A DNA stretch of 64,000 nt from assembly GCA_022825065.1 (NCBI GenBank), contig JAJDYR010000022.1, forward strand, positions 97,021 through 161,020, written 5' to 3'. Positions 10,498-61,765 of this stretch are shown here, in pieces; the stretch's first letter is position 1, and each line of letters opens with the position of its first letter. Source of the DNA: a bacterium. GTDB taxonomy: Bacteria > UBA8248. The notes beneath the pieces were generated by a model. It ran no database searches. It worked only from the letters and a program-made list of their open reading frames with translations, and was not told where the DNA came from. The position numbers and the translations under genes were made by a program.

Positions 10498-10514
10498 CGT
10501 CCGAACCTCATTGC

Positions 10515-39524: not shown

Positions 39525-39693
39525 CGTCATCCTCTCACAAGAACCCTTCCATTCGTCCGGGCGAAGCCTATCACGAGCGGGCGAGAAGGCGAAGGAGAAC
39601 GGGGTTCTCGAATAAGTCATGATTTCGTGATTCGGTGAATGAAACTGACTAAGGAGGCTGTTGAACAAGCCCCTGAAAGGGAAACCCCATAAA

Positions 39694-39812
39694 GGCAACC
39701 CCCCCCTACCCCCCCTTGTCAGGGGGGTATAAAAAGGCGATGCGTCCTCGCCGGGCTGAGGGGGCTTTGCTTTTTCTTGCCCCCCTGACAAGGGGGGGTA
39801 GGGGGGGTTGCC
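39694..39812. repeat. Family-A MITE-like element, copy A1. The 33-bp terminal inverted repeats are GGCAACCCCCCCTACCCCCCCTTGTCAGGGGGG ... CCCCCCTGACAAGGGGGGGTAGGGGGGGTTGCC. The internal segment is inverted relative to copies A3-A5.
   Basis: Read directly. The internal segment 'tataaaaaggcgatgcgtcctcgccgggctgagggggctttgctttttcttg' is the reverse complement of the A4 internal segment. Confidence 0.8.
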
Positions 39813-39958
39813 TTTCGACCAGGGAGATCGGGGGTTTGCGCGATAGCGGTCTTCCCGCTAAAGGCAATATCTCCCGACGAGGACTTTTTCACCAACCCCG
39901 GAATGCGCGCGCGGCGCATTTTGATGTAGGATAGGCGTATTCCTTACATGGAGAGAAC

Positions 39959-42478
39959 GTGCACCCCCTGCATCTGCTGGCGATTGGGTACATAGCGGGT
40001 TTGCTGACGGGCGGGCTTTCCTTGGACTTCGAGCGGGGAGACGCCGCCTCCACCTTGACCGCCGCGCTCGTTCTCGCCTTCTCGATCCTGCTCGCCTTGA
40101 GCCGCCGCATCCGGGGGAAGAGGCGGCGCGTCCTTGCGGCGCTCCTCCTGTTCCTGGGATTCGCCGCCTCTATCGCCGCCCCCGCGCTCCATCGCGGCGC
40201 CACGCCCGCGCATCACCTGCTGCGGCACATCCCCTACGAGCGCATGAACGTCACGGGCCATCTATCACGCCCCGTGGAGCGAAACGACGGCGAGACGCCC
40301 AGACCGCGCATCTACATCGACGCCGAGCGCGCCCTCATCCGGGGCGTCGAGGTTTCCATGACCGGCGTCGCGCGGATCACGCTGGCCTCGCGCCTCGAAA
40401 AGGTTCCAGAAGTCGGCGACAGGCTGCTCATCCGGCGCGTGCGTCTCGCCCCTCCCGAGCGCTTCAAGAACCCCGGCGCGTTCGACTACCGCGAATTCCT
40501 GCGCCTCCGGGGCGTCCATGCCGTCGGCTACAGTTCCGTGCGCAACCTCCACGTTTTAGAGCCGAGGGAGAAATGGGGCTGGCGGCGGCTTTTGTTTCAG
40601 TTCCGCGAGCGCATGAGCGCCCACATGAACGCCGTCTACCCCGAGCGCGCCGCCGGTCTCATCGAAGCGATGACCATCGGATTGCGAGATGGCATCGGCA
40701 CCGAACTCAAGGACGCCTTCAGGAGGTCGGGCGCGGCGCACCTGCTCGCCATCAGCGGTTTGCACGTGGGTTTCATCGCCGCTTTTTTCTTCTTCGCCCT
40801 GCTAGGCGTTCTGCGCAGACTCCCGCCCCGGGTTTTTCCCCTGCGCCCGTTCGTGCTCACGCCGTCCAAACTCGCATCGCTCGGCGTCATCCCCCTCGTG
40901 ATCCTCTTCGCGCTTTTGAGCGGCGCCCGGATATCCACCGTGCGCGCCACGATCATGATCGTCGCCTACCTCCTCACCCGGCTCCTGGAACGGCCGGGAA
41001 GCGCGATCCATTCCGTCCTGCTCGCCGCCCTGCTCATCCTGCTGGTCGAGCCCGGCTTCATCTGGGACGTGGGCTTCCAGCTCTCCTTCGTGGCGGTGAG
41101 CGCCATCATCCTGGCGGCGGACAGGCTCCCGCGGCCCGAGGCGCGCCTGAGGATATGGGAGAAAGCGTGGTGGCTGGCGCGGGCGCATCAACTCGCCATC
41201 ATCCAGTTGGTCGTCACCGCCGCGGTCACGCCGCTCACGGCGCTCCATTTCCATCAGGCGCATCCCATCGGCCTGATCGTGAACTTCCTGCTCATCCCCG
41301 TCGCATCGCTGCTCGTGCCTCTCTCCTTCGTGGCGAGCGCCCTCGCTGCGGTCCTGCCGGCGGGCGCGTCCGCTCTCCTGCTCCCCGCCACTTGGCTCAC
41401 CGGCGCCCTCGCTGGGTTCATGATCTCCGTTTCGACTTATTCCGCAGAAATCCCCTGGGCCAGCATCGTCGCGCCGAGCCCTCAGGTCTGGCTCATCGCC
41501 TCGATCTACGCCCTCATGGCTTTCGCCCTGCGCTCAAGGCGCGCGCGGAGGCGGCGGATCGCCTGGGCGGGCGTGTGCGGCCTGACGGTCTTCCTGCTCC
41601 TCCCCGACGCCGGCGCGCGGCCCGTGACGCCAAAGCGCACCACCCTGCTCCTGCCCGACGCCGGGAACGTGGACGCCTTTTTCCTGCGCCTGCCGGACGG
41701 AAAGGGCCTGGCGGTCGACGCCTCCGGCAAACGGACGGGCGGCTTCAACGCCTGGGGCAACGTGCTCGCTCCCCTGATGCGCCGGGAGAATGAAAGAGCC
41801 TGGCAAACCATGCTCAGCCTCTCCAGATATCCCAAAGAGCGACTCGCCGCGAACGCGTTCGCCTCGGGAATACGCGTCGAAAACTTGCTTCGCATCAGCG
41901 ACCTCGGCGCTTCGGCGCCTTATCGTTCCCGCTTCAGAAAGCGGCGCCATTCTCCCCGCACCATCTGGCGGATGAGCGGAGGCGGGGCGCGGGTTTCCCT
42001 GCGTTCCTGGGGAAGAGGCGCGACGGGCTTCGAGGTCGAAAACCCCCGCTCACGCTGGCTGCTCATGCTGCCCTCGAAATTCCCGGCTTTCGACGCCAGG
42101 TGGTTCCGGGGGAAGAGATACGACCTCGTGCGCCTGCCGGAGAACCTGCTCAGAAAACGGGAAGTGCTCGACTGGCTCGAAGCGCGTCCGCCCCGCGCCG
42201 TCGTGGCCGCTCCCCAAAGGGTGAAATGGATGCGGGCCGACCTGTGGCGGGAAACGAGGAGACGGCAGAGAAGACTGGGAGTCTATCGCCCCTGGCGCGG
42301 CGGGATGCTCCGCGTCCGGTCGGGCGGCGAAGGTGATACGGCGCGCATTTCCGTGGAGCGATACCGCGCCGCCGAAGCCTGGCCGGGCAGCGAGGCGGCC
42401 GGGTGGCGCGCGTTCCGCAGAAGCTTCGCCCCTGAATTTTCAAGCCGCGAAAAATGGAAACGACGCGCCGCCCGCTAG
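39959..42478 (+). CDS. comEC: DNA internalisation-related competence protein ComEC/Rec2. GTG start. The C-terminal metallo-beta-lactamase-like domain appears degenerate.
   Basis: N-terminal TM/DUF4131-like region. Competence domain 'AAHLLAISGLHVGFIAAFFFFALL...RISTVRATIMIVAYLL'. C-terminal 'LLPDAGNVDAFFLRLPDGKGLAVDASG...EVLDWLEARPP...LGVYRPWRGGMLRVRSGG' matches the ComEC MBL-domain framework, but no HxHxDH / HHGS His motifs are recognisable. Confidence 0.7.
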   Translation: MHPLHLLAIGYIAGLLTGGLSLDFERGDAASTLTAALVLAFSILLALSRRIRGKRRRVLAALLLFLGFAASIAAPALHRGATPAHHLLRHIPYERMNVTGHLSRPVERNDGETPRPRIYIDAERALIRGVEVSMTGVARITLASRLEKVPEVGDRLLIRRVRLAPPERFKNPGAFDYREFLRLRGVHAVGYSSVRNLHVLEPREKWGWRRLLFQFRERMSAHMNAVYPERAAGLIEAMTIGLRDGIGTELKDAFRRSGAAHLLAISGLHVGFIAAFFFFALLGVLRRLPPRVFPLRPFVLTPSKLASLGVIPLVILFALLSGARISTVRATIMIVAYLLTRLLERPGSAIHSVLLAALLILLVEPGFIWDVGFQLSFVAVSAIILAADRLPRPEARLRIWEKAWWLARAHQLAIIQLVVTAAVTPLTALHFHQAHPIGLIVNFLLIPVASLLVPLSFVASALAAVLPAGASALLLPATWLTGALAGFMISVSTYSAEIPWASIVAPSPQVWLIASIYALMAFALRSRRARRRRIAWAGVCGLTVFLLLPDAGARPVTPKRTTLLLPDAGNVDAFFLRLPDGKGLAVDASGKRTGGFNAWGNVLAPLMRRENERAWQTMLSLSRYPKERLAANAFASGIRVENLLRISDLGASAPYRSRFRKRRHSPRTIWRMSGGGARVSLRSWGRGATGFEVENPRSRWLLMLPSKFPAFDARWFRGKRYDLVRLPENLLRKREVLDWLEARPPRAVVAAPQRVKWMRADLWRETRRRQRRLGVYRPWRGGMLRVRSGGEGDTARISVERYRAAEAWPGSEAAGWRAFRRSFAPEFSSREKWKRRAAR

Positions 42479-42537
42479 CGGTGAGACCAACCCGCGCGTT
42501 TAGGGGCTGCTGACAGGTCCCTTTTTCGGGGGATAAA

Positions 42538-42640
42538 GGCACCCCCCCTACCCCCCCTTGTCAGGGGGGCAAGAAAAAACAAAACCCCTCAGCCCGGCGG
42601 TGGGCGTTGCCTTTTTATACCCCCGGACAAGGGGTTGTCG
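42538..42640. repeat. Family-A MITE-like element, copy A2 (right TIR degenerate/truncated)
   Basis: 'GGCACCCCCCCTACCCCCCCTTGTCAGGGGGGcaagaaaaaacaaaacccctcagcccggcgg...cctttttataCCCCCGGACAAGGGGTTG'. Confidence 0.7.
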
Positions 42641-42674
42641 AAAAAATCATCCTCGGTCGGAAATGACCACTGCC

Positions 42675-42812
42675 GTCATTCCGGCGAAAGCCGGAATCCA
42701 TTTTATCGCAGAATGACAATACCCTGGCTTTTCATTTCTCTGTCATTGGCGAGAATCAATCAGGAAATAAAAACAAAGGCAAAAAATGGATTCCGGCTTT
42801 CGCCGGAATGAC
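42675..42812. repeat. Family-B TIR element, copy B1. TIRs are GTCATTCCGGCGAAAGCCGGAATCCATT ... AATGGATTCCGGCTTTCGCCGGAATGAC. It translates as 'VIPAKAGIH' in spurious ORFs.
   Basis: Read directly. The internal AT-rich segment is the reverse complement of the B3 internal segment. Confidence 0.8.
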
Positions 42813-42899
42813 GAACAAAACCGCCCTGTCTCGTCGGGGCAGGCGGTATTGGGGGTTACGCGGCAGTCCCTCTTCCTACCCGCACGGATGGCCATAAAA

Positions 42900-43005
42900 C
42901 CTCATCCTGAGTAGGCGCGTAAGCGCCGTATCGAAGGATGGGGGCGTCTCCCGACGCACGAGAGGGCATCCTTCGATACGCGGCTCCGCCGCTACTCAGG
43001 ATGAG
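42900..43005. repeat. Long imperfect hairpin (about 106 nt) downstream of the TPP-enzyme gene. Arms are CCTCATCCTGAGTAG...GCGCCGTATCGAAGGATG and CATCCTTCGATACGCGGC...CTACTCAGGATGAG.
   Basis: Inverted-repeat arms read directly. Single copy in the window. Confidence 0.55.
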
Positions 43006-43049
43006 AGAGATGTGAAGACTTTTTCAACAGCCCCGTTTAAGGCGCAGGC

Positions 43050-44795
43050 TCAAGATTCCGCGTCGGGCGGCGGAGCCGTGGCGGCCCCGCCCCGGAAGGA
43101 TTTCACCGTCCGCGTCCACCGGGAGGAAAGCACGTCCCGGTCAATGGGACAGTCGATGACGTGAACGCCACCCCCCGACTGCGCATCGCGGATGGCGCTC
43201 CCCAACCCCTCCGCCGATTCCACCCGATGGCCATGCGCGCCGAAAGCGCGAGCGAGACTCGGGAAATCGGGGTTGTTGAGCGAGGTGGCGATGTAGCGCT
43301 CATTGAACACGTGCTTTTGCGAGTGCCTGAGCGCGTTGTATTCCCCGTCGTTGAAAATAAGATAGGTGACGGACAAACCGAGCGCCGTCGCCGTGGCGAG
43401 CTCACCGCAGGTCATGGTGAAGCTCCCGTCTCCCACGATCGCGCACACCGGCCGCTCGGGCGCGCCGAGCTTCGCCCCGATAGCCGCGCCTATGGCGTAG
43501 CCCATCGACTGGTAGGCTTCCGAGAGCAGGATGCTCCGGGGGCGGTGAATCGTAAACGCCTGCTCCATGAGCCAGCTCTGGGTGGCGGAGGAATCGGAGA
43601 TGAAAATCGTATCGGGCGAGGTGTTCTCGCGCAGCGTCTTCATCACGAAAAGACCGTGGAAGGGCGGCTCGGCCGGTTGCGCCAAAAACGAGCGCAGCCT
43701 CTCCTCATAGCGCCTTTTCCCCTCGCGCACGCGGACGTGACCTTCGGTAAGCGCAGTATCTTCTGCGTCCGAGATTCTCCTGAGCAGGCCATCGAGCGCG
43801 GGCTTGAGATCACTCACCAAGCCCACCGATGCCGGGTAATTGCGCCCGACCCGCTCGGGGTCGATGTCGATCTGAACGAGATTCTTCGGCATCGGCGCCT
43901 TGAAGTAAAAGGTGGCGAACTGCCCGAAGCCCGTGCCTAAGGCCAGACACGAATCCGCCTCTTCGAGCATCTCCTCACAGCCCAGGAAATGCACGAGGCC
44001 GAAGGAGAGCGGGTCGGCTTCGGAGAGAATCCCCCTCCCCTTCACGGAGGTGACGACGGGCGCGCCGAGCTTCGAAGCCAGAAGCTGCACTTCTCTTTCG
44101 CAGCGGGCGGTCACCACGCCGTTTCCCGCATAGATCACCGGACGTCTGGCCGCCAGGAGCGATTCTGCGATCTCATCGAGCGCGCGCTCATCGACGGGCG
44201 GCGGGGACGGCGGCCCTTCGAATTCGGGCCCTACGATCACCCGCTCCTCTTCGGCTTGGAACAGGTCCGCCTTCATCACCACCTGCACGGGCCCCGGCCT
44301 TCCCGCCTCCGCCCAGCGGAACGCGGCCTCAATAGCGGGCGCGATGCCTGCGACAGAATCGGGCGTGAACGATTTCTTGACGCAGCCGGCGAGCGCCTTT
44401 TCCATATCCACGTCGTGGATGGCGCTCCTGTTCCGCATGTTGTCGGCGAGGGTGGCCGTCACCGCGACGACGGGAACGGCATCCTCATAAGCGGAGCGAA
44501 GCGCGGTGGCGAGGTTCGTGCCGCCCGGCCCCGGCACGGTGAAGACCACGCCCGTCTTCCCGGACACCTTGGCGTAGCCGTCCGCCGCGAAGCCCGCCCC
44601 CTGTTCGTGGCGCGTGACGACCGGCACAGCGCCCGCCCCGTCGATCATCGCGTCGTAGACCGGCAGCGTGAGCGTGCCCGGAATACCAAAGATGTATTCC
44701 ACGCCCCTCGCATGAAGCGCATCGAGCAGGACCTGCGATCCGTTTCGCGCCACCTGAGACTCCTCCGGTTTCCTCATAGAAACAAAGCCCGCCAA
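43050..44795 (-). CDS. Thiamine-pyrophosphate-dependent enzyme (acetolactate-synthase large-subunit-like). Solitary: no ilvN/ilvH small subunit adjacent.
   Basis: 'VLLDALHARGVEYIFGIPGTLTLPVYDAM...', TPP-binding region 'GDGSFTMTCGELATA'. 581 aa. Confidence 0.75.
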   Translation of the reverse strand: MAGFVSMRKPEESQVARNGSQVLLDALHARGVEYIFGIPGTLTLPVYDAMIDGAGAVPVVTRHEQGAGFAADGYAKVSGKTGVVFTVPGPGGTNLATALRSAYEDAVPVVAVTATLADNMRNRSAIHDVDMEKALAGCVKKSFTPDSVAGIAPAIEAAFRWAEAGRPGPVQVVMKADLFQAEEERVIVGPEFEGPPSPPPVDERALDEIAESLLAARRPVIYAGNGVVTARCEREVQLLASKLGAPVVTSVKGRGILSEADPLSFGLVHFLGCEEMLEEADSCLALGTGFGQFATFYFKAPMPKNLVQIDIDPERVGRNYPASVGLVSDLKPALDGLLRRISDAEDTALTEGHVRVREGKRRYEERLRSFLAQPAEPPFHGLFVMKTLRENTSPDTIFISDSSATQSWLMEQAFTIHRPRSILLSEAYQSMGYAIGAAIGAKLGAPERPVCAIVGDGSFTMTCGELATATALGLSVTYLIFNDGEYNALRHSQKHVFNERYIATSLNNPDFPSLARAFGAHGHRVESAEGLGSAIRDAQSGGGVHVIDCPIDRDVLSSRWTRTVKSFRGGAATAPPPDAES

Positions 44796-45124
44796 AGCTA
44801 GGCGGCATCCGCGCGCGTGTCAACTTCCATACCCGTTTGCGCGCGCGGGGCCGATGGACTACCTTCTCGACTGATTCATTCGGGCGCACATGACGGGAGG
44901 CGGCGGTAGAGATTGTCGGGGTTCACAGCGAACAAGCCCGGCAGCGCGGGGTTGTTGAAAAGCCCTCTTGAGGAGGTCGAGTTTCTCCGCCTCGGAAAAC
45001 CCGGCGGCAAAACGAGCAAAAGCGGGATTCACTCCCTCATTGAGGGAGCTGTTGAAAAAGCCCTGACTTCGTGATTCGGCGTATGAAACCGGCCGGGGAG
45101 GGAGGGTTTGACACGATGGAATTG

Positions 45125-45152
45125 TAGGGGCGGTTTGCGAACCGCCCCTACG
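45125..45152. repeat. Family-C REP-like palindrome GTAGGGGCGGTTTGCGAACCGCCCCTAC (copy C1). It abuts the left end of B2.
   Basis: Perfect 28-bp palindrome read directly. Related copies at 54489..54516 and 50769..50792. Confidence 0.75.
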
Positions 45153-45172
45153 GGCGGATGCGGTTTTGATCG

Positions 45173-45307
45173 TCATTCCGGCGAAAGCCGGAATCCATTT
45201 GCGGATGCGGGTGAATGAACGGCGGCGTTTCATTCCCCGCCGATGCGCAAGAACCCTGACGAAAGGCAAAAAGCATAAAATGGATTCCGGCTTTCGCCGG
45301 AATGACG
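45173..45307. repeat. Family-B TIR element, copy B2
   Basis: Same 28-bp TIRs as B1 and B3, with a different internal segment. Confidence 0.8.
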
Positions 45308-45396
45308 GGGTGGCCAATTCCGAGCGAGGAGGGGTTTTTCAACAACCCTCTCAAGGGGGGAGTGATGCCGACTCTCAGCCGGGCGGCGGGCGCAGA

Positions 45397-46158
45397 ATGG
45401 AGAAAGCGATGTTCAGCCAACAGGCGATAGACGCTCTCAAAGACGCGGAATCGGTGGTCGTCCTCACCGGGGCGGGCGTGAGTGCGGAGAGCGGCGTGCC
45501 CACCTTCCGGGGAGCGGGCGGCCTGTGGCGCGAGTACAGCGCCACCTCGCTGGCGACGCCCGAGGCCTTTCGCGCCGACCCGAAGCTCGTCTGGGAGTTT
45601 TACAACTACCGCCGCGAGGTGCTGGAACCCCTGGCGCCCAACCCGGGACACTACGCCATCGCCTCGCTGGAGGAGCGCTTCGAGCGCTTCACCCTCATCA
45701 CGCAGAACATCGACAACTTGCACCGCGTCGCCGGGACGAGGGAGATCGTGGAGCTGCACGGCAACATCTGGCGCGTTCGCTGCACGAACCTGGGCTGTGA
45801 GCGCTACACGCTCGCGTGGGAGAACCGCGACGTGCCGATCGACCCCCTGCCGCCAAAGTGCGAGGCGTGCGAGAGCCTCCTGCGCCCCCACGTGGTGTGG
45901 TTCGGCGAGATGCTCGACCCCGAGCAGTTGCGCCGGGCGCTCGTTGCGGTGGATGATTGCGATTACCTGATCGTGGCGGGCACGTCCGCCGCGGTGCAGC
46001 CGGCCGCCTCCATGCCCATGACGGCCTCGCGGGGCGGCGCGTTCGTGCTCGAGGTGAACCCCGAGCCGACGGACATCAGCCCGTACATGAGCGAGGCGGT
46101 GCAGGAGCCCTCGGGCGTCGCCCTGCCCCGCCTGCTCGAAGCGGCTCTTGGAGGATAG
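45397..46158 (+). CDS. NAD-dependent protein deacylase, Sir2 family (CobB-like). Start at internal ATG 45397. The tracked ORF begins at 45166, inside repeat B2.
   Basis: 'VVVLTGAGVSAESGVPTFRG', 'QNIDNLHRVAG', Zn ribbon 'CTNLGCERY...CEAC'. Confidence 0.8.
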   Translation: MEKAMFSQQAIDALKDAESVVVLTGAGVSAESGVPTFRGAGGLWREYSATSLATPEAFRADPKLVWEFYNYRREVLEPLAPNPGHYAIASLEERFERFTLITQNIDNLHRVAGTREIVELHGNIWRVRCTNLGCERYTLAWENRDVPIDPLPPKCEACESLLRPHVVWFGEMLDPEQLRRALVAVDDCDYLIVAGTSAAVQPAASMPMTASRGGAFVLEVNPEPTDISPYMSEAVQEPSGVALPRLLEAALGG

Positions 46159-46160
46159 TG

Positions 46161-47423: not shown

Positions 47424-47464
47424 TTTAACAACAAATATTTGCAAGTTATTATTAAAGTCGATTC

Positions 47465-48773: not shown

Positions 48774-49009
48774 GAGGCCTCTCCTTCGCGGCGCATTTCG
48801 CGGATTTTAGCATGAGTGCAGGCGAGATGGGTATATGGGATTCTCGTGGAGAGTGAGGAGAATAAACCGGACTGGCGTGAGAAATCCCGGCGCGCGAAAC
48901 GCGGGCGGCCTCTTTTCAGGGCGGATGAAAAGCCTTACAGTCCTATGGCGCATTTCATACATCCACTCGATGCGGCCATCGCACCGATGAGACGGAAGGA
49001 GGCTCAGAC

Positions 49010-50071: not shown

Positions 50072-50122
50072 CTCTCATACGCGGAGACGCATTCGTTTTC
50101 ATATTCCCAAGGAGAAATACCG

Positions 50123-50599: not shown

Positions 50600-50616
50600 G
50601 GGGGGAAGTCCGCGCC

Positions 50617-50666
50617 GAAGGCGTCACCTTTACCCCCCTGACAAGGGGGGGGCCAGGGGGGTTGCC
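50617..50666. repeat. Family-A solo right half (right TIR plus the adjacent internal segment)
   Basis: 'gcgtcacctttACCCCCCTGACAAGGGGGGGGCCAGGGGGGTTGCC'. Confidence 0.6.
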
Positions 50667-50836
50667 TTTCAAGGGCGATGGTTTTCCGTGTACCCGCCCC
50701 TGCGGGTTCGTTTTAATTTGCGTGGTTTTTGTAGAAGCCGTTCGTGAACGGCCCTCCCCAGAAAAAGCGGGCGGTTCTCGAACCGCCCCTACGAAACCCG
50801 CAAACCCTGCCGGTTGCCGATACGCGCGCGGCGTAA

Positions 50837-50902
50837 GGACAACCCCTCGTGGTTGTCCCTTGCAGAAGGGGTCTTCGGACAGGCACGGTGGTCTGTCCCT
50901 AC
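50837..50902. repeat. Paired REP-like palindromes: family E1 (GGACAACCCCTCGTGGTTGTCC, 50837-50858) followed by family D1 (GGACAGGCACGGTGGTCTGTCCCTAC, 50877-50902)
   Basis: Read directly. The same E-then-D order recurs at 56943-57018. Confidence 0.7.
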
Positions 50903-50980
50903 AAACGAGAAAAGTTTTCGTTCGTCATTCCGGCGTCGGAGCCAACCAGTGCGGGGTTGTTGAAAAAGCCTTTACCAAAG

Positions 50981-51098
50981 GAGCACCCCCCCCTACCCCC
51001 CTTGTCAGGGGAGTAAGAAAGAGCAAACCCTCCACCACAGCGGCGAGGGGCGATGCCTTTTTTTACCCCCCTGACAAGGGGGGGTAGGGGGGGTTGCC
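50981..51098. repeat. Family-A MITE-like element, copy A3
   Basis: 'GAGCACCCCCCCCTACCCCCCTTGTCAGGGGAGtaagaaagagcaaaccctcc...gatgcctttttttACCCCCCTGACAAGGGGGGGTAGGGGGGGTTGCC'. Confidence 0.8.
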
Positions 51099-51377
51099 TT
51101 TCCATCCGAAAGGGGCTTCTCCTCTACCCTTGGCAAGGGGTCTTTTTAACAGCCCCGACGAGGGACGTCGCAGATAGAGCCGAAGGTTCGCCACCGACAT
51201 TGTAGGGGCCGCATACATGCGGCCCGGCCTTTCGCCGACAAAACACGGGTCGCATATATGTGTGGGGCGGCCCCGATGAGGGGCCGCCACCTACAGACCA
51301 CTACGAAGGTCGGTGGCCAGAATGGCGGGGCACGGCGAGCCTGGAGGCGGAGCGGGGCGCGAGAGAAACCTACGAGT

Positions 51378-51821
51378 CTACTCCACCTTCGCCTTCACGT
51401 TCTTTGCGAACTCGGAGAATATCTTGTTCGCCTGGTTCTTGATGACGGTGAAGCCCAGCGAGCCGAGCTTCCCGAACACGTCGACGCTCGAGTCGATGCG
51501 CACCTTCGTCTCGTTCTCCGAGACGGCCTCGAGCGTCACCTCGTTCTTCTGCTTGAGGCTCGCCGCGATTTTCGAGTCCTTCCCCTCGCCCACCGTGCGG
51601 ATGTACTCGGGCGCGCGGACTTCCTCGATGTTGATCTGAAGCTGAAAGCTCGCCTTGAGGAAACTGACCTTCTGCTCGACCCGCACGCCGTAGGTCGCGT
51701 CGTCTATTTTCTCCACGTCCTTCACGCCGGGCACGCAGGCGGCGAACTCCTCGACCTGCCAGATGAAGTCCCACACCTTCTCCCGGGGGGCGGCGACGGT
51801 AATCTCCTGGTTGAATTCCAT
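51378..51821 (-). CDS. SRPBCC-fold protein, CoxG family (carbon monoxide dehydrogenase subunit G-like)
   Basis: 'MEFNQEITVAAPREKVWDFIWQVEEFAACVPGVKDVEKIDDATYGVRVEQKVSFLKASFQLQ'. 147 aa. Confidence 0.6.
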   Translation of the reverse strand: MEFNQEITVAAPREKVWDFIWQVEEFAACVPGVKDVEKIDDATYGVRVEQKVSFLKASFQLQINIEEVRAPEYIRTVGEGKDSKIAASLKQKNEVTLEAVSENETKVRIDSSVDVFGKLGSLGFTVIKNQANKIFSEFAKNVKAKVE

Positions 51822-51931
51822 GTTGGGTGTCCTTTTTGCTCGGTGTGACGCGAAATGATAATCAAACGAGGGTATGATTCTAACAAGACGCGGCGTTTTA
51901 CTCCACAGACTCTCATCTTTCAGGAACGCAG

Positions 51932-52612
51932 ATGCCGGCCGAATCCCTCATCCTCTTCGCCAAACCGCCCCTCGCAGGCCGGGTGAAGACGCGCCTCGCC
52001 CAAAGCCTCGGGCGCGAGGGGGCCGCGCGTCTTTACGCGTGTTTCCTGAAAGACGCAGCCGAGACGGCGCGCTCGCTCAGCGATGCGAGGCCAAGCGCCG
52101 GCCTCGTCTGCGAGTGGACGCTGGAGCAAGGCGAATCGCCCGATGAGTTTCCGCTCACCGACTGGCTGCCCGGCGCCTTTCTCCACCGAATGCAGACGGG
52201 CGCCGACCTGGGGATGCGCATGGCGGCGGCCCTGGGCCGATGCCTGGCTTTCGGGAGACGGGCTGTGCTCATCGGCACGGATTTCCCGGATCTGCCGCAC
52301 GAGGTTCTGATAGACGCGTTCGAGAAGCTGGATTGCGGGGATGAGCCTACCGTCGCGCTCGGGCCCGCTGCGGACGGGGGTTACTACCTGATCGGGATGA
52401 ACCGGTTCGTCCCGGAAATTTTCACCGGCATCCCCTGGAGCACGGGCGAGGTGTTCCCGCGCACGATGGAGAAAGCCGCCGCACTCGGCGTCGGGACTGC
52501 CCTCCTTCCCGAGTGGCGCGACGTGGACGAGGCGGATGATCTGGAGGCGCTCAAGGGCCGCCTCTCGCAGGACGCCTCACGCGCCCGGCACACGCGGGAC
52601 TTTCTTGGCTGA
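51932..52612 (+). CDS. DUF2064 / TIGR04282-family protein (predicted glycosyltransferase-like)
   Basis: 'LILFAKPPLAGRVKTRLAQSLG...AVLIGTDFPDLP...GPAADGGYYLIGM'. Confidence 0.6.
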   Translation: MPAESLILFAKPPLAGRVKTRLAQSLGREGAARLYACFLKDAAETARSLSDARPSAGLVCEWTLEQGESPDEFPLTDWLPGAFLHRMQTGADLGMRMAAALGRCLAFGRRAVLIGTDFPDLPHEVLIDAFEKLDCGDEPTVALGPAADGGYYLIGMNRFVPEIFTGIPWSTGEVFPRTMEKAAALGVGTALLPEWRDVDEADDLEALKGRLSQDASRARHTRDFLG

Positions 52613-52691
52613 GCTACATTCTGTATTGCGCTGAATCCTTGGAGGTGAAAGGATTGCACGTCTAAGTCCGCCGAAAGATGAGGAGCACGCA

Positions 52692-53321
52692 TTGCCGAAC
52701 GAAACCGTCGTAGAAGCCACCTATACCTATTGCGTCCACTGAGCCTGGTGTCTCATCGCGACCGGGCGGTTGCGAACACTGAGCGAGCAGGCGGGCGGGC
52801 GCCTCGCCATCCGCTACCGCGCCTTTCTGCTCTCGCCCGAGCCGGACCACCGTCCGGCCCGCAAGGAGGCCATCATGGGCCACTGGGCGATGGCGAAAAG
52901 CCACCCCGGCGGCGAGGCGATCAACCCCGAACTCATGGCGCGCCGCGAATTTCCTTATCCTCATTCCACGCCGGGCGCGGTCGCCATCAAGGCATTCGCC
53001 GCCCAGCTCCCCGAGTGCGAGGGCGAGTATCTCGAAGCCGTGGAGCGAACGCATCTGGTCGAGTGCCTGAGCATCGACGACGCCGGCGTGCTCGTGGCCG
53101 CCGCCGAGCGGCTGGGGGCGGAGCCCGCGATGATGCGCGAGGTCATGGCCGACCCGGATATGGAAAAGCGCGTGTGGGCGGATCACGTCGAGGCCGTGAA
53201 CGCAGGCATCCAGTCCACGCCCACGGTCGATTTTGCCGGCAAATACAGGATCACAGGCGCGCAGCCCATGGCCATATTCGAGCAAACTTATGAGCGCGCC
53301 CTGGCCGATCAGGACACCTAA
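52692..53321 (+). CDS. DsbA/FrnE-like thiol-disulfide oxidoreductase, predicted selenoprotein. In-frame TGA (Sec) at 52740-52742 in a U-A-W-C redox motif. TTG start after GAGGAG. 209 aa including Sec.
   Basis: The frame is open from 52635 through the TGA into the tracked ORF 52770..53321. 'ETVVEATYTYCVH[U]AWCLIATGRLRTLSEQAGGRLAIRYRAFLLSP' aligns to the FrnE 'SDVVCPWCYIGKRRLE...VEVRWRPFELNP', with TGA at the first Cys. The C-terminal 'GIQSTPTVDFAGKYRITGAQPMAIFEQ' matches the DsbA-family 'GVxGVPTFVIxGKYxISGAQP'. Confidence 0.6.
52752..52783 (+). promoter_or_regulatory. Candidate bacterial SECIS stem-loop beginning 10 nt after the in-frame UGA. It has a 4-bp lower stem (CUCA/UGAG), a 7-bp upper stem (CGCGACC/GGUUGCG, including one G-U pair) and a GGGC apical loop about 22-25 nt past the UGA.
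   Basis: Base-pairing worked out by hand from 'ctcatCGCGACCgggcGGTTGCGaacactgag'. Confidence 0.4.
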
Positions 53322-53328
53322 ACCCACT

Positions 53329-54225
53329 ATGCGAGAAGGCGGCCGGGCTGCAAGAATAGTCGCCGCTCTGGCGGCCCTCCTGGTGCTTGCGGGCTGCGCG
53401 AACATCCGCGCCCTCTTCCTGCCCAAAGAAGAGAAGAAACCGGCGCTCGAAACAAAACGGCCACGGATGAAAAAACCCGAAGAGCCGCATTTTTTCCGCG
53501 TCCTGACGCTTCCCACTTACGACATGGCGAAAGAAGCGTATGACAAGACGGCCATCCTCGGGATCCCCTTCCGCAAGGTGGCCCTCGAGTTCAGGGATAA
53601 AGCGACGTCCATCCGCAAGGCCGAGCCCTCGGAGTTCAGCGTCGGCGTCCGGGCCGAGGTGCAGGATTTGAAACTCGGGGGGACGTCGAGAATCATCGAG
53701 TCGGACGAGGGGTTTTCCATCCTCCAGAAAACGACGAGCGCGCATTACGAACGCGCCCTCAAGCTCATGGAGAAGAAAAAAGACGAGGCCGCCCTCGAAC
53801 TCATCCGCCGCGACCTCGAGATCAACCCCGGAAATGTGGACGCCTGGCTCGCCCTGGCGAAGATGATGGACGAGGCGGGTGATCTGGAGGAGACGCTCGC
53901 CGCGTACGGGAAGGCCCGCGAACTCGACCCCGAGAACCCGGTCGTCTCCAACAGGTACGCCAGATACCTGGTCTCCCAGTACCGCTACGAAGAGGCGGAG
54001 AAGGTGCTCAAGGCGGCGGAGGAATTATCACCCGAAGACACGGGCGTGCTCCTGAACCTCGCCTCCCTGCTCGTCTACCTGAACAAGGAGCCGGACTTCG
54101 CCTCGCGCCTCATCGAGCGCGGCTCCAGAATCGACCCCGGCCGCCCGGAATGGTACCGCCTCTCGGGCGTGATTCAGAAACGAAGGGAACTCGGCATCGC
54201 GCCGAAAGCGAAGGGGGTGAATTAG
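53329..54225 (+). CDS. TPR-repeat lipoprotein. Lipobox 'LLVLAGC'. Start at internal ATG 53329, 7 nt after the DsbA-like stop.
   Basis: 'MREGGRAARIVAALAALLVLAGCANI', TPR-like 'NVDAWLALAKMMDEAGDLEETLAAYGKARELDPENPVV'. Confidence 0.5.
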   Translation: MREGGRAARIVAALAALLVLAGCANIRALFLPKEEKKPALETKRPRMKKPEEPHFFRVLTLPTYDMAKEAYDKTAILGIPFRKVALEFRDKATSIRKAEPSEFSVGVRAEVQDLKLGGTSRIIESDEGFSILQKTTSAHYERALKLMEKKKDEAALELIRRDLEINPGNVDAWLALAKMMDEAGDLEETLAAYGKARELDPENPVVSNRYARYLVSQYRYEEAEKVLKAAEELSPEDTGVLLNLASLLVYLNKEPDFASRLIERGSRIDPGRPEWYRLSGVIQKRRELGIAPKAKGVN

Positions 54226-54230
54226 AAACC

Positions 54231-54258
54231 GTAGGGACAGGTCGCGACCTGTCCCTAC
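54231..54258. repeat. Family-D REP-like palindrome GTAGGGACAGGTCGCGACCTGTCCCTAC (copy D2)
   Basis: Perfect palindrome read directly, 6 nt after the lipoprotein stop. Confidence 0.7.
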
Positions 54259-54343
54259 CACTCCTTTGTCTCTTTTTCCTATATTCCTGAAACCCTGCCT
54301 TTCGGCCGCTCTCCCCTTACTGGCCGGGGTTAATAGAATGGTC

Positions 54344-54484
54344 GTCATTCCGGCGAAAGCCGGAATCCATTTGTTTTGCCTTTGTTTTTTATTTCCTGAT
54401 TTCTTCCCGCCAATGACGAGGAAATGAAAAGCCGGCGTATTGTCATTCTGCTTTAGAATGGATTCCGGCTTTCGCCGGAATGAC
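54344..54484. repeat. Family-B TIR element, copy B3 (inverse orientation relative to B1). Immediately followed by the family-C palindrome C2 (54489-54516).
   Basis: TIRs identical to B1. The internal segment is the reverse complement of the B1 internal segment. Confidence 0.8.
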
Positions 54485-54602
54485 GGCTGTAGGGGCGGAT
54501 CGCGAACCGCTCCTACGGGTCGAACCCGACCGGAGAAGAGCCGCCCCAAAAACCCTCCTGGCAGAAGGGGTAAAAACCGCGGCGCGGCCTCTCGCCTGGA
54601 AA

Positions 54603-54719
54603 AGCAACCCCCCCTACCCCCCCTTGACAGGGGGGCAAGAAAGAGCAAAACCCCCTCGGCCCGGCAGGGCGCATCGCCTTTTTTTACCCCCCTGACAAGG
54701 GGGGGTAGGGGGGGTTGCT
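54603..54719. repeat. Family-A MITE-like element, copy A4
   Basis: 'AGCAACCCCCCCTACCCCCCCTTGACAGGGGGGcaagaaagagcaaaaccccctcggcccggcagggcgcatcgcctttttttACCCCCCTGACAAGGGGGGGTAGGGGGGGTTGCT'. Confidence 0.8.
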
Positions 54720-54918
54720 TTTACCTCCTGATGAAAAGGGGGCTTTTTCAAAGGCCCTTCTTCAGCCAGCCGACCCCTCCTTCCTCGTTCGCGTCAAACC
54801 CTCCTTCCACACTCGCGTTCGACCCCTTGGCTCCCCGCGCATGAATGCGTCATAATGCCGCCGTTCTTAAACCGCGCGAACTTACACAGAAGAACACCAA
54901 ATCATAGAGGGTATACGC

Positions 54919-56271
54919 ATGAGCGCCGAGCTTTTGATCAAGAACGCGAAAATCGTGACGCCGACCGACACCTACGAGGGCTGCGTCTATGTGGATGAGG
55001 GGCGGATCGCCGCCATCACGCACAAGGCCGAGGCGAATGCCGCGCGCGAAATCGACGCCGCGGGCCGGTACCTCCTGCCGGGCATGGTGGATGAGCACGT
55101 CCACATGATGGACCCGGGCTTCACCGACCGGGAGGACTGGACGACGGGCACCGAGGCGGCGGCACGGGGCGGCATCACCACCGTGATCGACCATCACCGG
55201 AGCGACCCGCTCGTCTACACGCGGGAGATTCTCGAAGACAAGACGGCCTACGTCGACTCGCGCTCGGTGGTGGATTTCGGGCAGTTGGGGGGTCTCGACG
55301 TCGACAACCTCGAACACCTGCGCCCCATGTGGGAGGGCGGCGCGCTGGGCTTCAAGGGCTTCATGTGCGATCTGCACGGCGTGCCCGACCTCTCAGAAGG
55401 CGTATTGTTGAACATCATGCGCGAGGTCAATTCTTTCGGCGGCACGGTGATGCTGCACTGCGAGAGCGATTCGATTCTCCGCAAATCGAAAGAAAAAATA
55501 GACGCCGATAACCGGACGGACTACATGTGCATCAGCGACTGGCGAAACCCCGAGAGCGAGTACGTGGCGACGCTGGACGCCGTGGCGCTCGCCGAACTCA
55601 CGGGCTGCAAGGTGCTGGTGGCGCACGTGAGCCAGCCCGTCCTGCTCGAAGCCATCCAGGCGGCGCGCGGGCGCGGCGCGAGAATTTTCGCGGAAAGCTG
55701 CCCCCAGTATTTCTATCTCGACCATTCGCATCTCGAAGAACTGGGGCCGTTCGTGAAATTCACGCCGGTCATCCGCTCGGCGGAGACGCGCGACGGCATG
55801 CGCGTGGCGCTCGGACGCGACATGGTGGACACCATCGGCACCGACCACTGCCCCTTCCCCCGCCAGCGGAAGGTGGACGGCCTCGAGAACATCCACGACG
55901 CGCCCTTCGGGATACCGGGCGTGGAGACGACGGTACGCCTGATGCTGAACGCCGTGAGCGAGGGCGTCCTGACGCTGAACCAGATGGTGCGGGTCTGCTG
56001 CGATCAGCCCGCGCGCGTCTTCAACATCCACCCCCGCAAGGGGTGCATCCAGGTGGGCGCGGACGCGGACTTCATCGTCGTGGACATGGACTTGGAGGAG
56101 ACGCTGCGCGATGAGGATATCGTCTCCAAGTGCAAGTGGACGCCGTTCAACGGCTGGACGATGAAGGGCGCGCCCGTGATGACGCTCGTGCGCGGCGAGG
56201 TCGTGATGGAAGACGGCGAGGTGACCGGACGCGCGGGGTACGGCGAGACCGTCGAGCGTCCGGGGGGTTGA
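54919..56271 (+). CDS. Cyclic amidohydrolase of the dihydroorotase/allantoinase/dihydropyrimidinase family
   Basis: 'LLPGMVDEHVHMMDPGFTDREDWTTGTEAAARGGITTVIDH' (HxH metal motif), 'TDHCPFP'. 450 aa. Confidence 0.75.
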   Translation: MSAELLIKNAKIVTPTDTYEGCVYVDEGRIAAITHKAEANAAREIDAAGRYLLPGMVDEHVHMMDPGFTDREDWTTGTEAAARGGITTVIDHHRSDPLVYTREILEDKTAYVDSRSVVDFGQLGGLDVDNLEHLRPMWEGGALGFKGFMCDLHGVPDLSEGVLLNIMREVNSFGGTVMLHCESDSILRKSKEKIDADNRTDYMCISDWRNPESEYVATLDAVALAELTGCKVLVAHVSQPVLLEAIQAARGRGARIFAESCPQYFYLDHSHLEELGPFVKFTPVIRSAETRDGMRVALGRDMVDTIGTDHCPFPRQRKVDGLENIHDAPFGIPGVETTVRLMLNAVSEGVLTLNQMVRVCCDQPARVFNIHPRKGCIQVGADADFIVVDMDLEETLRDEDIVSKCKWTPFNGWTMKGAPVMTLVRGEVVMEDGEVTGRAGYGETVERPGG

Positions 56272-56296
56272 GGGGACGCCCCCCTCGGCTTGAAAA

Positions 56297-56478
56297 CCAA
56301 CCCCCCCTACCCCCCCTTAACAGGGGGGCAAAAAAGACCGACTCCCCGGCAAGTGGGGGATATGAAAAAGACGACGCCCGCCGCCGGGCGGAGAGGCTTT
56401 GCTTTTTTCTGCCCGCCGCCGGGCTAGGGGGTTTGCTTTTTCTTGCCCCCCTGACAAGGGGGGGTAGGGGGGGTTGCC
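56297..56478. repeat. Family-A MITE-like element, copy A5 (about 180 bp; internal insertion)
   Basis: Both 33-bp TIRs intact. The internal segment is about 60 bp longer than in A3 and A4. Confidence 0.8.
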
Positions 56479-56942
56479 TTTGTCCCCTCACAAGGATGAC
56501 TTTCTCAACAGCCCCGCATGTATGCCCGACCCCGCAAAAACCGTTCTCTCGTTCCACTCATATGCAAACCGACTCCTGCTTCCTTCGTAATCGACTCCGC
56601 AATTGCCCGCATTTGCGCTTGCCGGAAGCCGGTCGCGACCGGCCTGGCAGCGGCATTCTCCTCTTGTTGGCGTTCCAGCCCCCGATATCCACTCGATATG
56701 CGAACTTCGCGTTTGGGGCGGACACACAGGTCCGCCCCTACAAAAGCGCAAACCCTCATTCATCAGCACTTTATCAACAGCCCCTCAAGGAGGGAGTTGA
56801 CTTCAAAAACGTGCGCTCCACCAAAATCGCTCCACGAGACTTGTTCAACACCCCCGAGGAGGGAATGTTCGCCGGAATGACGAACAAAACCGCACCGCCT
56901 CGCAAGGGGCTGTTGAAAAACCTTCGTGATGGTTTTGCAGCA

Positions 56943-57018
56943 GGACAACCCCTCTCCGGGGTTGTCCCGCCCTCCGTGGTTGTCCTTCGTCAGGACAGGC
57001 ACGGAGGCCTGTCCCTAC
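56943..57018. repeat. Paired REP-like palindromes: E2 (GGACAACCCCTCTCCGGGGTTGTCC with an extra GGTTGTCC) followed by D3 (GGACAGGCACGGAGGCCTGTCCCTAC)
   Basis: Read directly. Same E-then-D arrangement as at 50837-50902. Confidence 0.7.
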
Positions 57019-57212
57019 GGTGAACAATTCGATGATCGGGGTTCCCTCCTCAGGGAAACTCTTTCAACAAGCCCATCCGAGGGCGACTCATCGGGGCGCC
57101 CCCCCAACGGAACGTGTCGTAAAGTGCTTTTTGTGTTGTTATGCTATAAAGAATTCGAAGAGCAATGCCCGTAGCCGGTTCATTATATGATCGCCGGATT
57201 TGAGGAACAGCA

Positions 57213-61701: not shown

Positions 61702-61765
61702 GTAAATTTAGATAAAATTAGATAAATTCACGGGGTTTTTCGATAAATTGCTGAAAATTTTCGAG
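61702..61765. repeat. AT-rich tract with three 'YAGATAAAWT'-like direct repeats in a GC-rich convergent intergenic region
   Basis: 'taaattTAGATAAAATTAGATAAATTcacggggtttttCGATAAATTgctgaaaattttcgagg'. Confidence 0.5.

What the first reader, a model, noticed from the sequence alone, without database searches (positions are those of the whole stretch)
39531..57212. Six intergenic 'repeat islands' built as mosaics of at least six short repeat families (BIME-like organisation), confined to the accessory half of the window
Every intergenic region larger than 250 bp between 39.5 and 57.2 kb is composed of concatenated short repeats, and none occur in the first 39 kb. The islands are 39531-39958, 42479-43049, 44796-45396, 50600-51377, 54226-54918 and 56272-57212. 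Families are as follows. A: MITE-like with 33-bp poly-C/G TIRs. B: TIR element GTCATTCCGGCGAAAGCCGGAATCC. C: palindrome GTAGGGGCGGTTYGCGAACCGCCCCTAC. D: palindrome GGACAGG...CCTGTCCCTAC. E: palindrome GGACAACCCC...GGTTGTCC. F: TTTTTCAACAGCCCC / CTCAAGGAGGGAG, at least 11 copies. There are further palindromes (GTAGGGGCCGCATACATGCGGCCC at about 51215) and a shared 24-mer CGTGATTCGGYGWATGAAAC (39625, 45063). Units recur in fixed relative order: E then D twice; C abutting B twice; F flanking A repeatedly. This is the hallmark of composite BIME-like elements, not independent insertions. Islands occur at convergent, divergent and tandem gene junctions alike.
Basis: seen in the sequence. Interest (0 to 1): 0.75.

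Follow-up and report, generated by a model that had tools for sequence, protein, structure and literature searches.

The report
Intergenic nests of small mobile repeats
The six "repeat islands" are real pile-ups of several families of small mobile hairpin repeats, chiefly cut-down copies of one insertion sequence that prefers to land in the loops of other repeats; this kind of structure is already known, here seen in an uncultivated sponge-associated bacterium.

Summary
All motif families sit only in the six islands, plus a seventh at 61.4-62.0 kb, far above chance. They recur in at least 15 related metagenome-assembled genomes.

The interpretation needs revision.
- **Family F** is the terminal inverted repeat of an IS1182-family insertion sequence. 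Complete 1.5-kb copies occur in sister genomes. They carry 5-bp target duplications and sit in the loops of G/C-stem hairpins, including the arms of family A.
- **The "24-mer"** is that element's subterminal end.
- **F-bounded units of 200-400 bp** are its miniature derivatives (MITEs), carrying A, B, K or E-D as cargo. This explains the fixed module order.
- **Family B** ends match the published Ssn-related motif and 25 of 28 positions of the Neisseria NTS/dRS3 hairpin.
- **Families C and D** are REP-like palindromes with a GTAG/CTAC foot.

"BIME-like" is therefore only an analogy. "Accessory half" is unsupported: both halves hold housekeeping genes, and the first 39.5 kb is a packed one-strand gene cluster whose largest gap is 193 bp.

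One junction (OsmC|CoxG) measures 161-779 bp in six close relatives, which shows rapid turnover. No RAYT or Ssn gene was found in the DNA sampled.

Verdict: new members of known kinds, of moderate interest.

The parts
39528..39958 (.). Island 1, the divergent junction between the aldo-keto reductase and ComEC genes. The gene-proximal ~120 nt on each side are conserved with the ortholog in L065; the middle is repeat mosaic.
39654..39899 (.). F-A-F miniature element (246 bp): F end (39654-39669, minus), small hairpin module, A (39691-39816), right-hand module, F end (39884-39899, plus). An older decayed F end lies at 39601-39616, with the IS-subterminal '24-mer' at 39619-39645.
   Evidence: Full-length homology to L036 1157-1452 (target duplication GATAG) and to L067
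42479..43049 (.). Island 2, the convergent junction between ComEC and the TPP enzyme gene.
42535..42630 (.). Family A copy, truncated exactly in the loop (GACAA) of its right arm, where the next F-bounded element begins. It is preceded by a decayed F end at 42503-42518.
   Evidence: The same loop is the insertion site of full IS copies in L075 and L093.
42631..43034 (.). F-bounded composite element (404 bp). It carries B (42674-42813), the B-REP spacer module (42805-42833) and palindrome K (42899-43008), and ends in a perfect F (43019-43034).
44796..45396 (.). Island 3, the divergent junction between the TPP enzyme and Sir2 genes. Positions 44796-45015 are unique sequence.
45045..45349 (.). 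F-bounded composite element (~305 bp): F end (45045-45060), IS-subterminal 24-mer (45063-45089), REP C (45124-45151), B (45171-45307) and F end (45334-45349). It is flanked by inverted halves of the x hairpin (45029-45044 and 45350-45365).
50600..51377 (.). Island 4, the convergent junction between OsmC and CoxG. It holds a solo A arm (50629-50671), REP C-like (50769-50792), E (50837-50858) followed by D (50877-50902), a B-end fragment (50923-50936), and REP-like palindromes (51202-51225 and following).
   Evidence: The same junction measures 161-779 bp in six relatives.
50953..51156 (.). F-A-F miniature element (~205 bp) with A at 50981-51102. It is absent from the orthologous site in L149, L151 and L155.
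54226..54918 (.). Island 5, the tandem junction between the TPR protein and amidohydrolase genes. It holds REP D (54231-54258), B (54343-54485), REP C (54489-54516) abutting B, A (54600-54722) and a decayed F end at about 54743-54758. Positions 54760-54918 are unique promoter-side sequence.
56272..57212 (.). Island 6, the tandem junction between the amidohydrolase and MscS-like genes. It holds a long A variant (56293-56481), four F ends on the plus strand (56500-56515, 56769-56784 with an x half at 56784-56799, 56840-56855, and a decayed one at 57059-57074) and one on the minus strand (56906-56921). It also holds a REP (56716-56741), a B-end fragment plus spacer (56868-56893), and E (56943-56967) followed by D (56993-57018).
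61444..61991 (.). A seventh, smaller repeat region outside the finding, at the convergent junction between the CorC-like and Ada genes. It holds an AT-rich unit with GATAAAT motifs (61692-61760) and CCCCGCATTT-type motifs (61779-61917).

Best explanation
The islands are nests of small non-autonomous mobile repeats. They have built up in the few spacers of this region that lie between transcription units.

**Component 1: an IS1182-family insertion sequence and its miniature derivatives (MITEs).**
- The transposase is supplied in trans by a full copy. Such copies were seen in sister genomes but not in this window.
- It moves F-bounded units of 200-400 bp. Their interior is a long hairpin: A, a B pair, K, or E-D.
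- It makes 5-bp target duplications and prefers the loops of G/C-stem hairpins, namely the A arms and the small x hairpin.
- Because an F-A-F unit brings two new A-arm loops, each insertion adds preferred targets. Elements therefore stack inside one another, away from genes.

**Component 2: family B.** This is a pair of inverted NTS/dRS3-type hairpins (Ssn-related motifs) around a variable AT-rich segment of 85-150 bp. By analogy it is recognised as single-stranded DNA by a small GIY-YIG Ssn nuclease.

**Component 3: families C, D and other GTAGGG...CCCTAC hairpins.** These are REP-like and are presumably spread by a RAYT-type tyrosine transposase.

**What is shown:**
- the repeat families and their genome-wide spread;
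- the identity of F with the IS ends;
- the target duplications and hairpin-loop targets;
- presence/absence polymorphism at orthologous sites.

**What is inferred:**
- current activity in this genome;
- the Ssn and RAYT partners;
- any host function, such as termination.
For: **F is the IS end.**
- Elements of 1.51 kb bounded by F (L018 3407-4916, L075 1082-2597, L076 227-1748) encode a 479-aa transposase.
- That protein matches Pfam DUF772, DDE_Tnp_1_6 and DDE_Tnp_1. It also matches NCBIfam IS1182 at 342.7 bits against a cut-off of 270.

**Target duplications and hairpin-loop targets**.
- In A-arm loops: TTGTC (L018), GACAA (L075), GACAA (L093/L094).
- In x-hairpin loops: CAAGG (L076), CTCAA (L096).
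- In the window, an F end abuts GACAA in an A-arm loop at 42630/42631.

**Small F-bounded units.**
- Of 95 pairs, 6 have a perfect 5-bp duplication and 13 have at least 4 of 5 matching. The offset controls give 0 and 1.
- L036 F-A-F (296 bp, duplication GATAG) aligns over its full length with window 39654-39899.

**Module order across 90 loci** follows <f a> <a f>, <f b> <b f> and <f k> <k f>. The orientation bias of F beside A is 83 to 4.

**Polymorphism at orthologous sites.**
- L048 has an empty site where L087 has a 360-bp island; L045 differs from L003 in the same way.
- Island 1 and its ortholog in L065 share flanks but hold different modules.
- The OsmC|CoxG junction measures 161, 224, 454, 454, 657 and 779 bp in genomes whose OsmC protein is 100% identical.

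**Family B.**
- It matches the published SRM pattern at all six ends.
- It matches the NTS consensus at 25 of 28 positions, with one compensatory pair change (NTS consensus from PMC11893778; compared by hand).
- It gives a sub-threshold Rfam hit to a Wolbachia sRNA. Wolbachia is a known SRM host.

**REP features.** The GTAG/CTAC foot and stable 22-28-nt hairpins are present (definition from PMC3333891).

**Hairpin stability.** All units fold far better than shuffled sequence, with z-scores from -5 to -10.7.
Against: - No transposase, RAYT or GIY-YIG gene lies in the window. None of the latter two was found in about 0.74 Mb of related DNA. Those searches used query sequences recalled from memory, so they are weak tests.
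- None of the window's own F-bounded units shows a clean 5-bp duplication. Several have inverted rather than direct flanks (x halves at 45029/45350), which needs secondary recombination or decay to explain.
- About a third of A copies (30 of 90) have no F within 140 nt. A may therefore also spread by an unidentified route.
- The near-invariant A arms across species could reflect selection for a host function rather than recent mobility.
Confidence: 0.75

Rival explanations
1. The islands are host-domesticated structural or regulatory elements in the BIME sense. On this view they are composite units kept by selection as bidirectional terminators, mRNA-stabilising hairpins or nucleoid-protein sites, and mobility is secondary.
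For: - Terminator-like sites are enriched in the region: 48 against 18.8 +/- 4.5 in shuffles. Many lie in A arms and B ends, each being a hairpin followed by a T-run.
- The hairpins are very stable.
- A arms are almost invariant across species-level genomes.
- The islands sit between transcription units, including convergent gene ends.
Against: - The same orthologous junction carries six different module sets in genomes with identical flanking proteins, and some relatives have almost none.
- Whole islands are absent from orthologous sites.
- A solo A arm decays freely in relatives.
- The scan is only a consensus match, and no expression data exist.
- BIME architecture (REP/iREP pairs with defined linkers) is not present.
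Confidence: 0.15
2. The repeats are local: a segmental duplication, or an assembly artefact of a metagenome bin in which collapsed or chimeric repeats were stitched into spacers.
For: Short-read contigs identical to the window break exactly inside A arms. These repeats therefore do disturb assembly.
Against: - The same families and the same module order occur in at least 15 assemblies, including several long single-contig chromosomes of 4.3-4.5 Mb.
- Orthologous islands in independent assemblies share boundaries.
Confidence: 0.04
3. The units are genes for small structured RNAs, or lie within unrecognised protein-coding genes.
For: There are weak Rfam matches to a Wolbachia sRNA and to microRNA-precursor models, which reflect long hairpins. 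Long ORFs cross the islands in this GC-rich DNA.
Against: - No Rfam match reaches its gathering score; the best is 38.7 bits against 65.3.
- No tRNA or tmRNA was found.
- None of eight island-crossing ORFs has a Pfam match.
- Copies occur in both orientations with variable centres.
Confidence: 0.05

Closest known systems
Neisseria NTS/dRS3 hairpins (Ssn-related motifs) and neisserial intergenic mosaic elements
   Same: - The family B end, CGTCATTCCGGCGAAAGCCGGAATCCAT, matches the NTS consensus CGTCATTCCCGCGMAVGCGGGAATCYRG at 25 of 28 positions. The C10-G19 stem pair is swapped to G-C.
- All six ends satisfy the published SRM search pattern.
- As in the neisserial mosaics, inverted hairpin ends bracket short variable segments in intergenic clusters.
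- SRM-rich genomes are reported to be enriched among symbionts. Here the related MAGs are sponge-associated.
   Different: - The host is an uncultivated lineage labelled Nitrospinota, not Neisseria.
- No ssn (cd10448 GIY-YIG) gene was located.
- The units are single inverted pairs of 137-143 bp in the window, up to about 215 bp in related loci, and not long arrays.
- Several lie inside IS1182-type terminal repeats.
REP-targeting insertion sequences (IS1397/ISKpn1 of the IS3 family; ISPpu9, ISPpu10 and ISPa11 of IS110; others of IS4, IS5 and IS256)
   Same: An insertion sequence lands specifically in intergenic palindromic repeats, here in the hairpin loop, and so stays out of genes (PMC1525189).
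   Different: - The transposase is of the IS1182 family, which is not among the five families listed in that survey.
- The duplication is 5 bp.
- The element has abundant miniature derivatives that carry the target hairpin as cargo.
E. coli REP/BIME elements and their RAYT (TnpA-REP) transposase; REPINs of Pseudomonas
   Same: - The units are short GC-rich extragenic palindromes with a GTAG/CTAC foot (families C, D and others).
- They are clustered with other repeats in spacers and present in many copies.
   Different: - There are no alternating REP/iREP pairs with defined linkers.
- Several units are perfect palindromes that include the GTAG in the stem.
- No RAYT gene was found.
- Most of the island mass is not REP.
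Bacterial MITEs with modular or hairpin interiors (Correia elements of Neisseria; BOX and RUP of Streptococcus pneumoniae) - recalled from general knowledge, not tested
   Same: They are small non-coding units bounded by inverted repeats, intergenic, often folding into long hairpins, and mobilised in trans.
   Different: The terminal repeats, the parent IS family, the G7-TA-G7 arms of A and the nesting in hairpin loops are all specific to this case.

Membership tests
MITE derived from an IS1182-family insertion sequence (F-bounded units) | Terminal inverted repeats match those of an autonomous IS present in the same lineage | tested here: met
   The IS ends are GGGGCTGTTGAAAAACCC and GGGTTTTTCAACAGSCCC in L018, L075, L076 and L092-L096. 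The window F copies have 0-3 mismatches.
MITE derived from an IS1182-family insertion sequence (F-bounded units) | The parent element encodes a transposase of that family | tested here: met
   NCBIfam NF033551 (IS1182) scores 342.7 bits against a cut-off of 270. Pfam finds DUF772, DDE_Tnp_1_6 and DDE_Tnp_1.
MITE derived from an IS1182-family insertion sequence (F-bounded units) | Small size and no transposase ORF | tested here: met
   The window units are 205-404 bp. Island ORFs have no Pfam match.
MITE derived from an IS1182-family insertion sequence (F-bounded units) | Target-site duplication of the same length as the parent IS (5 bp) | tested here: inconclusive
   Met for L036, L056 and L067. 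Among 95 pairs, 6 are perfect and 13 have at least 4 of 5 matching, against 0 and 1 in controls. No window copy shows a clean duplication.
MITE derived from an IS1182-family insertion sequence (F-bounded units) | Presence/absence polymorphism at orthologous sites | tested here: met
Ssn-related motif / NTS-dRS3 hairpin (family B ends) | Matches the published degenerate SRM pattern HGTCWYN(0-2)YYVSBRHN(0-5)WNVSBRGN(0-2)RNCYNB | tested here: met
   All 6 B ends match, against 0.55 expected in shuffles. There are 42 matches in the related loci (pattern from PMC11893778).
Ssn-related motif / NTS-dRS3 hairpin (family B ends) | Hairpin core with an oriented, conserved 5' flank (CGTCA...) | tested here: met
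   There is an 8-bp stem with a GAAA loop. CGTCATT is conserved at every end.
Ssn-related motif / NTS-dRS3 hairpin (family B ends) | A cognate small GIY-YIG (cd10448) ssn gene in the genome, typically flanked by the motif | tested here: inconclusive
   tblastn with consensus sequences recalled from memory found nothing credible in about 0.74 Mb. Whole genomes could not be searched.
Ssn-related motif / NTS-dRS3 hairpin (family B ends) | Cleavage of the motif as single-stranded DNA by the nuclease | not testable with these tools
   This needs an experiment.
REP / BIME (families C, D and other GTAGGG palindromes) | An extragenic palindrome of 20-40 nt with a conserved GTAG at its foot | tested here: met
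   Examples are GTAGGGGCGGTTTGCGAACCGCCCCTAC, GTAGGGACAGGTCGCGACCTGTCCCTAC and ...CCTGTCCCTAC. Fold energies are -12 to -14.5 kcal/mol. The definition comes from PMC3333891.
REP / BIME (families C, D and other GTAGGG palindromes) | BIME architecture: REP and inverted REP in alternating orientation, separated by defined linkers and often iterated | tested here: not met
   The units occur singly or beside non-REP modules. E and D follow each other in one fixed order.
REP / BIME (families C, D and other GTAGGG palindromes) | An associated RAYT (PF01797) gene flanked by the REPs | tested here: inconclusive
   tblastn with a RAYT-like sequence recalled from memory found nothing in about 0.74 Mb. 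Whole genomes were not searchable.
REP / BIME (families C, D and other GTAGGG palindromes) | High copy number across the genome | tested here: met
   The D half-site CCTGTCCCTAC occurs 73 times in 0.68 Mb of related loci, against about 0.3 expected for an 11-mer (my calculation). GTAGGGGC occurs 91 times.
Any Rfam RNA family | Score at or above the family's gathering threshold | tested here: not met
   The best match is WsnRNA46 at 38.7 bits against 65.3.

The most novel reading that the evidence does not exclude
The IS1182-type element and family A may form a self-reinforcing 'landing-pad' system. The miniature element carries, as cargo, a long G7-TA-G7 hairpin whose loops are the transposase's preferred target. 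Every insertion would then create two new safe targets, and the family would grow only inside its own nests, away from genes.

A further reading is also open. The A arms (G3-N1-G3-N2-G3-N1-G3, a possible quadruplex on one strand) and the NTS-type hairpins that bracket comEC may have host roles in termination or in controlling transformation, as NTS/SsnA do in Neisseria.
Probability: 0.3. Interest if true: 0.6.

Novelty: new member of a known kind. Interest (0 to 1): 0.4.

Why it matters
The result gives a worked explanation of how intergenic repeat mosaics form in an uncultivated, sponge-associated lineage. They arise by nested insertion of IS-derived miniature elements into hairpin loops, alongside REP-like and NTS-type hairpins.

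- **IS families that target palindromes.** It adds IS1182 to the families seen to target extragenic palindromes.
- **Ssn-related motifs.** It extends them to a lineage in which the nuclease partner can now be looked for.
- **Practical use.** It flags sequences that break short-read assemblies of these genomes.

It does not reveal a new kind of system.

Tried and rejected
1. **Local duplication:** rejected, because all families recur in many genomes.
2. **Protein coding:** rejected.
3. **Known RNA families, tRNA or tmRNA:** nothing at threshold.
4. **A arms as the terminal repeats of their own autonomous IS.**
   - The one A pair with a 1.4-kb interior (L078) is an IS256-family element inserted in the A centre with a 9-bp duplication, so it is not a parent.
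   - The wide A pair in L022 contains no long ORF.
5. **A second F-bounded 1.55-kb segment (L056 754-2305) as another IS:** it has no transposase-like ORF.
6. **RAYT and GIY-YIG/Ssn genes.** tblastn with sequences recalled from memory found nothing in the window or in any fetched locus. This is a weak test and covers only a small sample of each genome.
7. **Sigma-70 promoter enrichment in the islands:** none, 4 against 2.7 expected.
8. **'Core versus accessory' split of the window:** rejected from gene content and spacer sizes.
9. **Literature on IS1182 hairpin targeting, or on repeats in Nitrospinota and sponge symbionts:** nothing found in the held library.

Full report
**Observation**

I read all six islands. 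Repeat detection over the whole window returns the poly-C/G palindrome (A), the GTCATTCCGGCGAAAGCCGGAATCC element (B), the GTAGGGGCGG palindrome (C) and the TTTTTCAACAGCCCC unit (F) as the top families.

The counts are far above chance:
- F: 9 matches against 0.05 expected.
- A arm: 9 matches against 0.00 expected.
- Every motif hit lies between 39.6 and 57.1 kb.

A BLAST of the window against 90 loci from other genomes gives no short-repeat coverage in the first 39 kb. It gives coverage only in the six islands plus one further spot at 61.69-61.76 kb. Within the islands, 45-71% of bases match repeats. The rest is unique or gene-proximal sequence. So "composed of concatenated repeats" is about half true.

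**Surroundings**

The genes beside the islands are ordinary: aldo-keto reductase, ComEC, a TPP enzyme, Sir2, HisRS, GNAT, FxsA, ADH, OsmC, CoxG, an amidohydrolase, MscS, MgtE, CorC and Ada.

The first 39.5 kb is a single minus-strand run of housekeeping genes. It includes MutS, YbeY, PhoH, a Xer-type recombinase, MurJ, HolA, RibBA, PPDK, GlyS, S21 and AspS. Its largest spacer is 193 bp. Lack of room between co-transcribed genes therefore explains the absence of repeats there. The "accessory half" label has no support.

**Spread beyond the window**

Several are single-contig chromosomes of 4.3-4.5 Mb. Several others are sponge-derived MAGs labelled Nitrospinota. One of these (L065) is syntenic with window 34.8-42.4 kb at 85-91% identity.

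In those loci, B, C, D, E, F and the companion motifs are all frequent.

**What F is**

Sorting all F copies showed that F is the conserved outer end of many different interiors. Three 1.51-kb segments bounded by inverted F copies turned up in related genomes.

They encode a 479-aa protein with DUF772, DDE_Tnp_1_6 and DDE_Tnp_1 domains. It scores 342.7 bits on NCBIfam's IS1182 model, whose cut-off is 270.

Their junctions show 5-bp target duplications in hairpin loops:
- TTGTC and GACAA, in the CCCCCC-TTGTCA-GGGGGG loop of A arms.
- CAAGG, in the loop of a small hairpin, ACTCCCCCTCAAGGGGGGAGT (here called x).

A metagenome scan added copies at 80% amino-acid identity in genomes that carry the same modules. 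Their insertions are again in an A-arm loop (GACAA) and an x loop (CTCAA).

Relatives at about 60% identity in unrelated metagenomes keep the same terminal repeat. They sit in other palindromic repeats with 5-bp duplications. Palindrome targeting therefore looks like a trait of this IS subgroup.

**F-bounded miniature elements**

Across loci the module order is strongly patterned: <f a> <a f>, <f b> <b f> and <f k> <k f>. Next to A, F lies in the terminal-repeat orientation 83 times and in the opposite orientation 4 times.

Of 95 small F pairs, 6 have perfect 5-bp flanking duplications and 13 have at least 4 of 5 matching. Offset controls give 0 and 1.

One of the six, L036 1157-1452 (296 bp, GATAG), is an F-A-F unit that aligns over its full length with window 39654-39899. 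So the composite F-A-F moves as a unit.

In the window, F-bounded units are 39654-39899, 42631-43034, about 45045-45349 and about 50953-51156. The second of these starts exactly at the GACAA loop of a truncated A arm.

None of the window units has a clean duplication. One has inverted x halves at its flanks. I attribute this to decay or to recombination between inverted copies. A comparable inverted-flank IS copy is seen in L095.

**Family B**

Its ends, CGTCATTCCGGCGAAAGCCGGAATCCAT, match the Neisseria Transformation Sequence consensus at 25 of 28 positions, with the C10-G19 stem pair swapped to G-C. All six ends satisfy the published degenerate pattern for Ssn-related motifs, against 0.55 expected.

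That paper shows such hairpins are cut as single-stranded DNA by small GIY-YIG nucleases whose genes they often flank. It names Wolbachia as another host. This explains the sub-threshold Rfam hit to a Wolbachia sRNA.

B units are inverted pairs. They measure 137-143 bp in the window and up to about 215 bp in related loci, with variable AT-rich centres. I did not find an ssn gene, but I could search only about 0.74 Mb, and only with remembered query sequences.

**Families C, D and relatives**

These are 22-28-nt GC-rich hairpins with a GTAG/CTAC foot. That foot is the hallmark of REPs recognised by RAYT transposases.

- The D half-site occurs 73 times in the sampled loci.
- E precedes D 13 times and follows it once.
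- A REP lies within 60 nt of a B end in 14 of 48 cases, against 2 of 48 in a control window.

The alternating REP/iREP pairs that define a BIME are not present. No RAYT gene was found in the sample.

**Turnover**

- Island 1 and its ortholog in L065 share both gene-proximal flanks and an old F end, but carry different modules between them.
- Island 2 also begins with an F at the same place in both genomes.
- Whole islands are present in one genome and absent from the orthologous site in another.
- The OsmC|CoxG spacer, in six genomes whose OsmC proteins are identical, measures 161, 224, 454, 454, 657 and 779 bp. These form a nested series. The window adds an E-D block and an F-A-F unit to a core shared with L149 and L152. 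A solo A arm is visibly decaying in the relatives.
- An IS256-family element sits inside an A centre in L078, with a 9-bp duplication.

**Possible function**

All units fold far better than shuffled sequence. Hairpin-plus-T-run sites are enriched, 48 against 18.8 +/- 4.5. Terminator or RNA-stabilising side effects are therefore plausible but untested. The polymorphism argues against an essential role at any one site.

**Verdict**

It misses the main organising principle, which is IS1182-derived miniature elements nesting in hairpin loops, and it misfiles family B.

The islands are new members of known kinds: MITEs, Ssn-related hairpins and REP-like palindromes. The most novel reading still open is that the miniature element carries its own preferred target.

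Noticed in passing
window 61444-61991: This is a seventh repeat region outside the finding. It holds an AT-rich unit with repeated GATAAAT motifs (61692-61760) that recurs in at least 17 foreign loci, with CCCCGCATTT/GCAAATGCGGGG motifs nearby. Its nature is unknown; it could be a promoter module, iterons or an element end.
   Followed up: partly
window 42899-43008: This is a 110-nt palindrome (K: CTCATCCTGAGTAGGCGCG...CGATACG...CTACTCAGGATGAG). There are 51 half-sites in the related loci, often inside F-bounded units.
   Followed up: partly
L078 4835-6274: An IS256-family transposase gene sits inside the centre of an A element with a 9-bp duplication, TTTTTCTTG. The family assignment rests on reading the translated ORF, not on a family search. 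This shows that other insertion sequences also land in these nests.
   Followed up: yes
L097-L134 (metagenome loci): IS1182 relatives at about 60% identity in unrelated environments keep the terminal repeat GGGGCTGTTGAAGAAG. They sit within other palindromic repeats (GGCAGCGCTGCC..., CATGAAGTGGACGCG...) with 5-bp duplications such as ACGCG, CGCGT and CGGGT.
   Followed up: partly
window 39959-42478 with islands 1 and 2: The DNA-uptake channel gene comEC is bracketed by repeat islands, and NTS-type hairpins lie just downstream. In Neisseria such hairpins, together with SsnA, modulate transformation. The link here may be coincidence.
   Followed up: no
window 1-64000: GC content climbs from about 0.49-0.55 in the first 10 kb to about 0.60-0.68 after 18 kb, although both parts encode housekeeping genes.
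   Followed up: no
L001; window 54694 and 56311: A short-read contig identical to the window starts and ends inside A arms. These repeats fragment short-read assemblies of this lineage.
   Followed up: partly
window 48774-49009 compared with L148, L149, L153 and L154: Relatives carry a 110-aa HTH_37 gene between FxsA and ADH. It is absent from the window and from the same-sample contig L150.
   Followed up: no
window 9544-10557: A Xer-type tyrosine recombinase gene lies inside the housekeeping cluster. It is probably the chromosomal dimer resolvase and not part of a mobile element.
   Followed up: no
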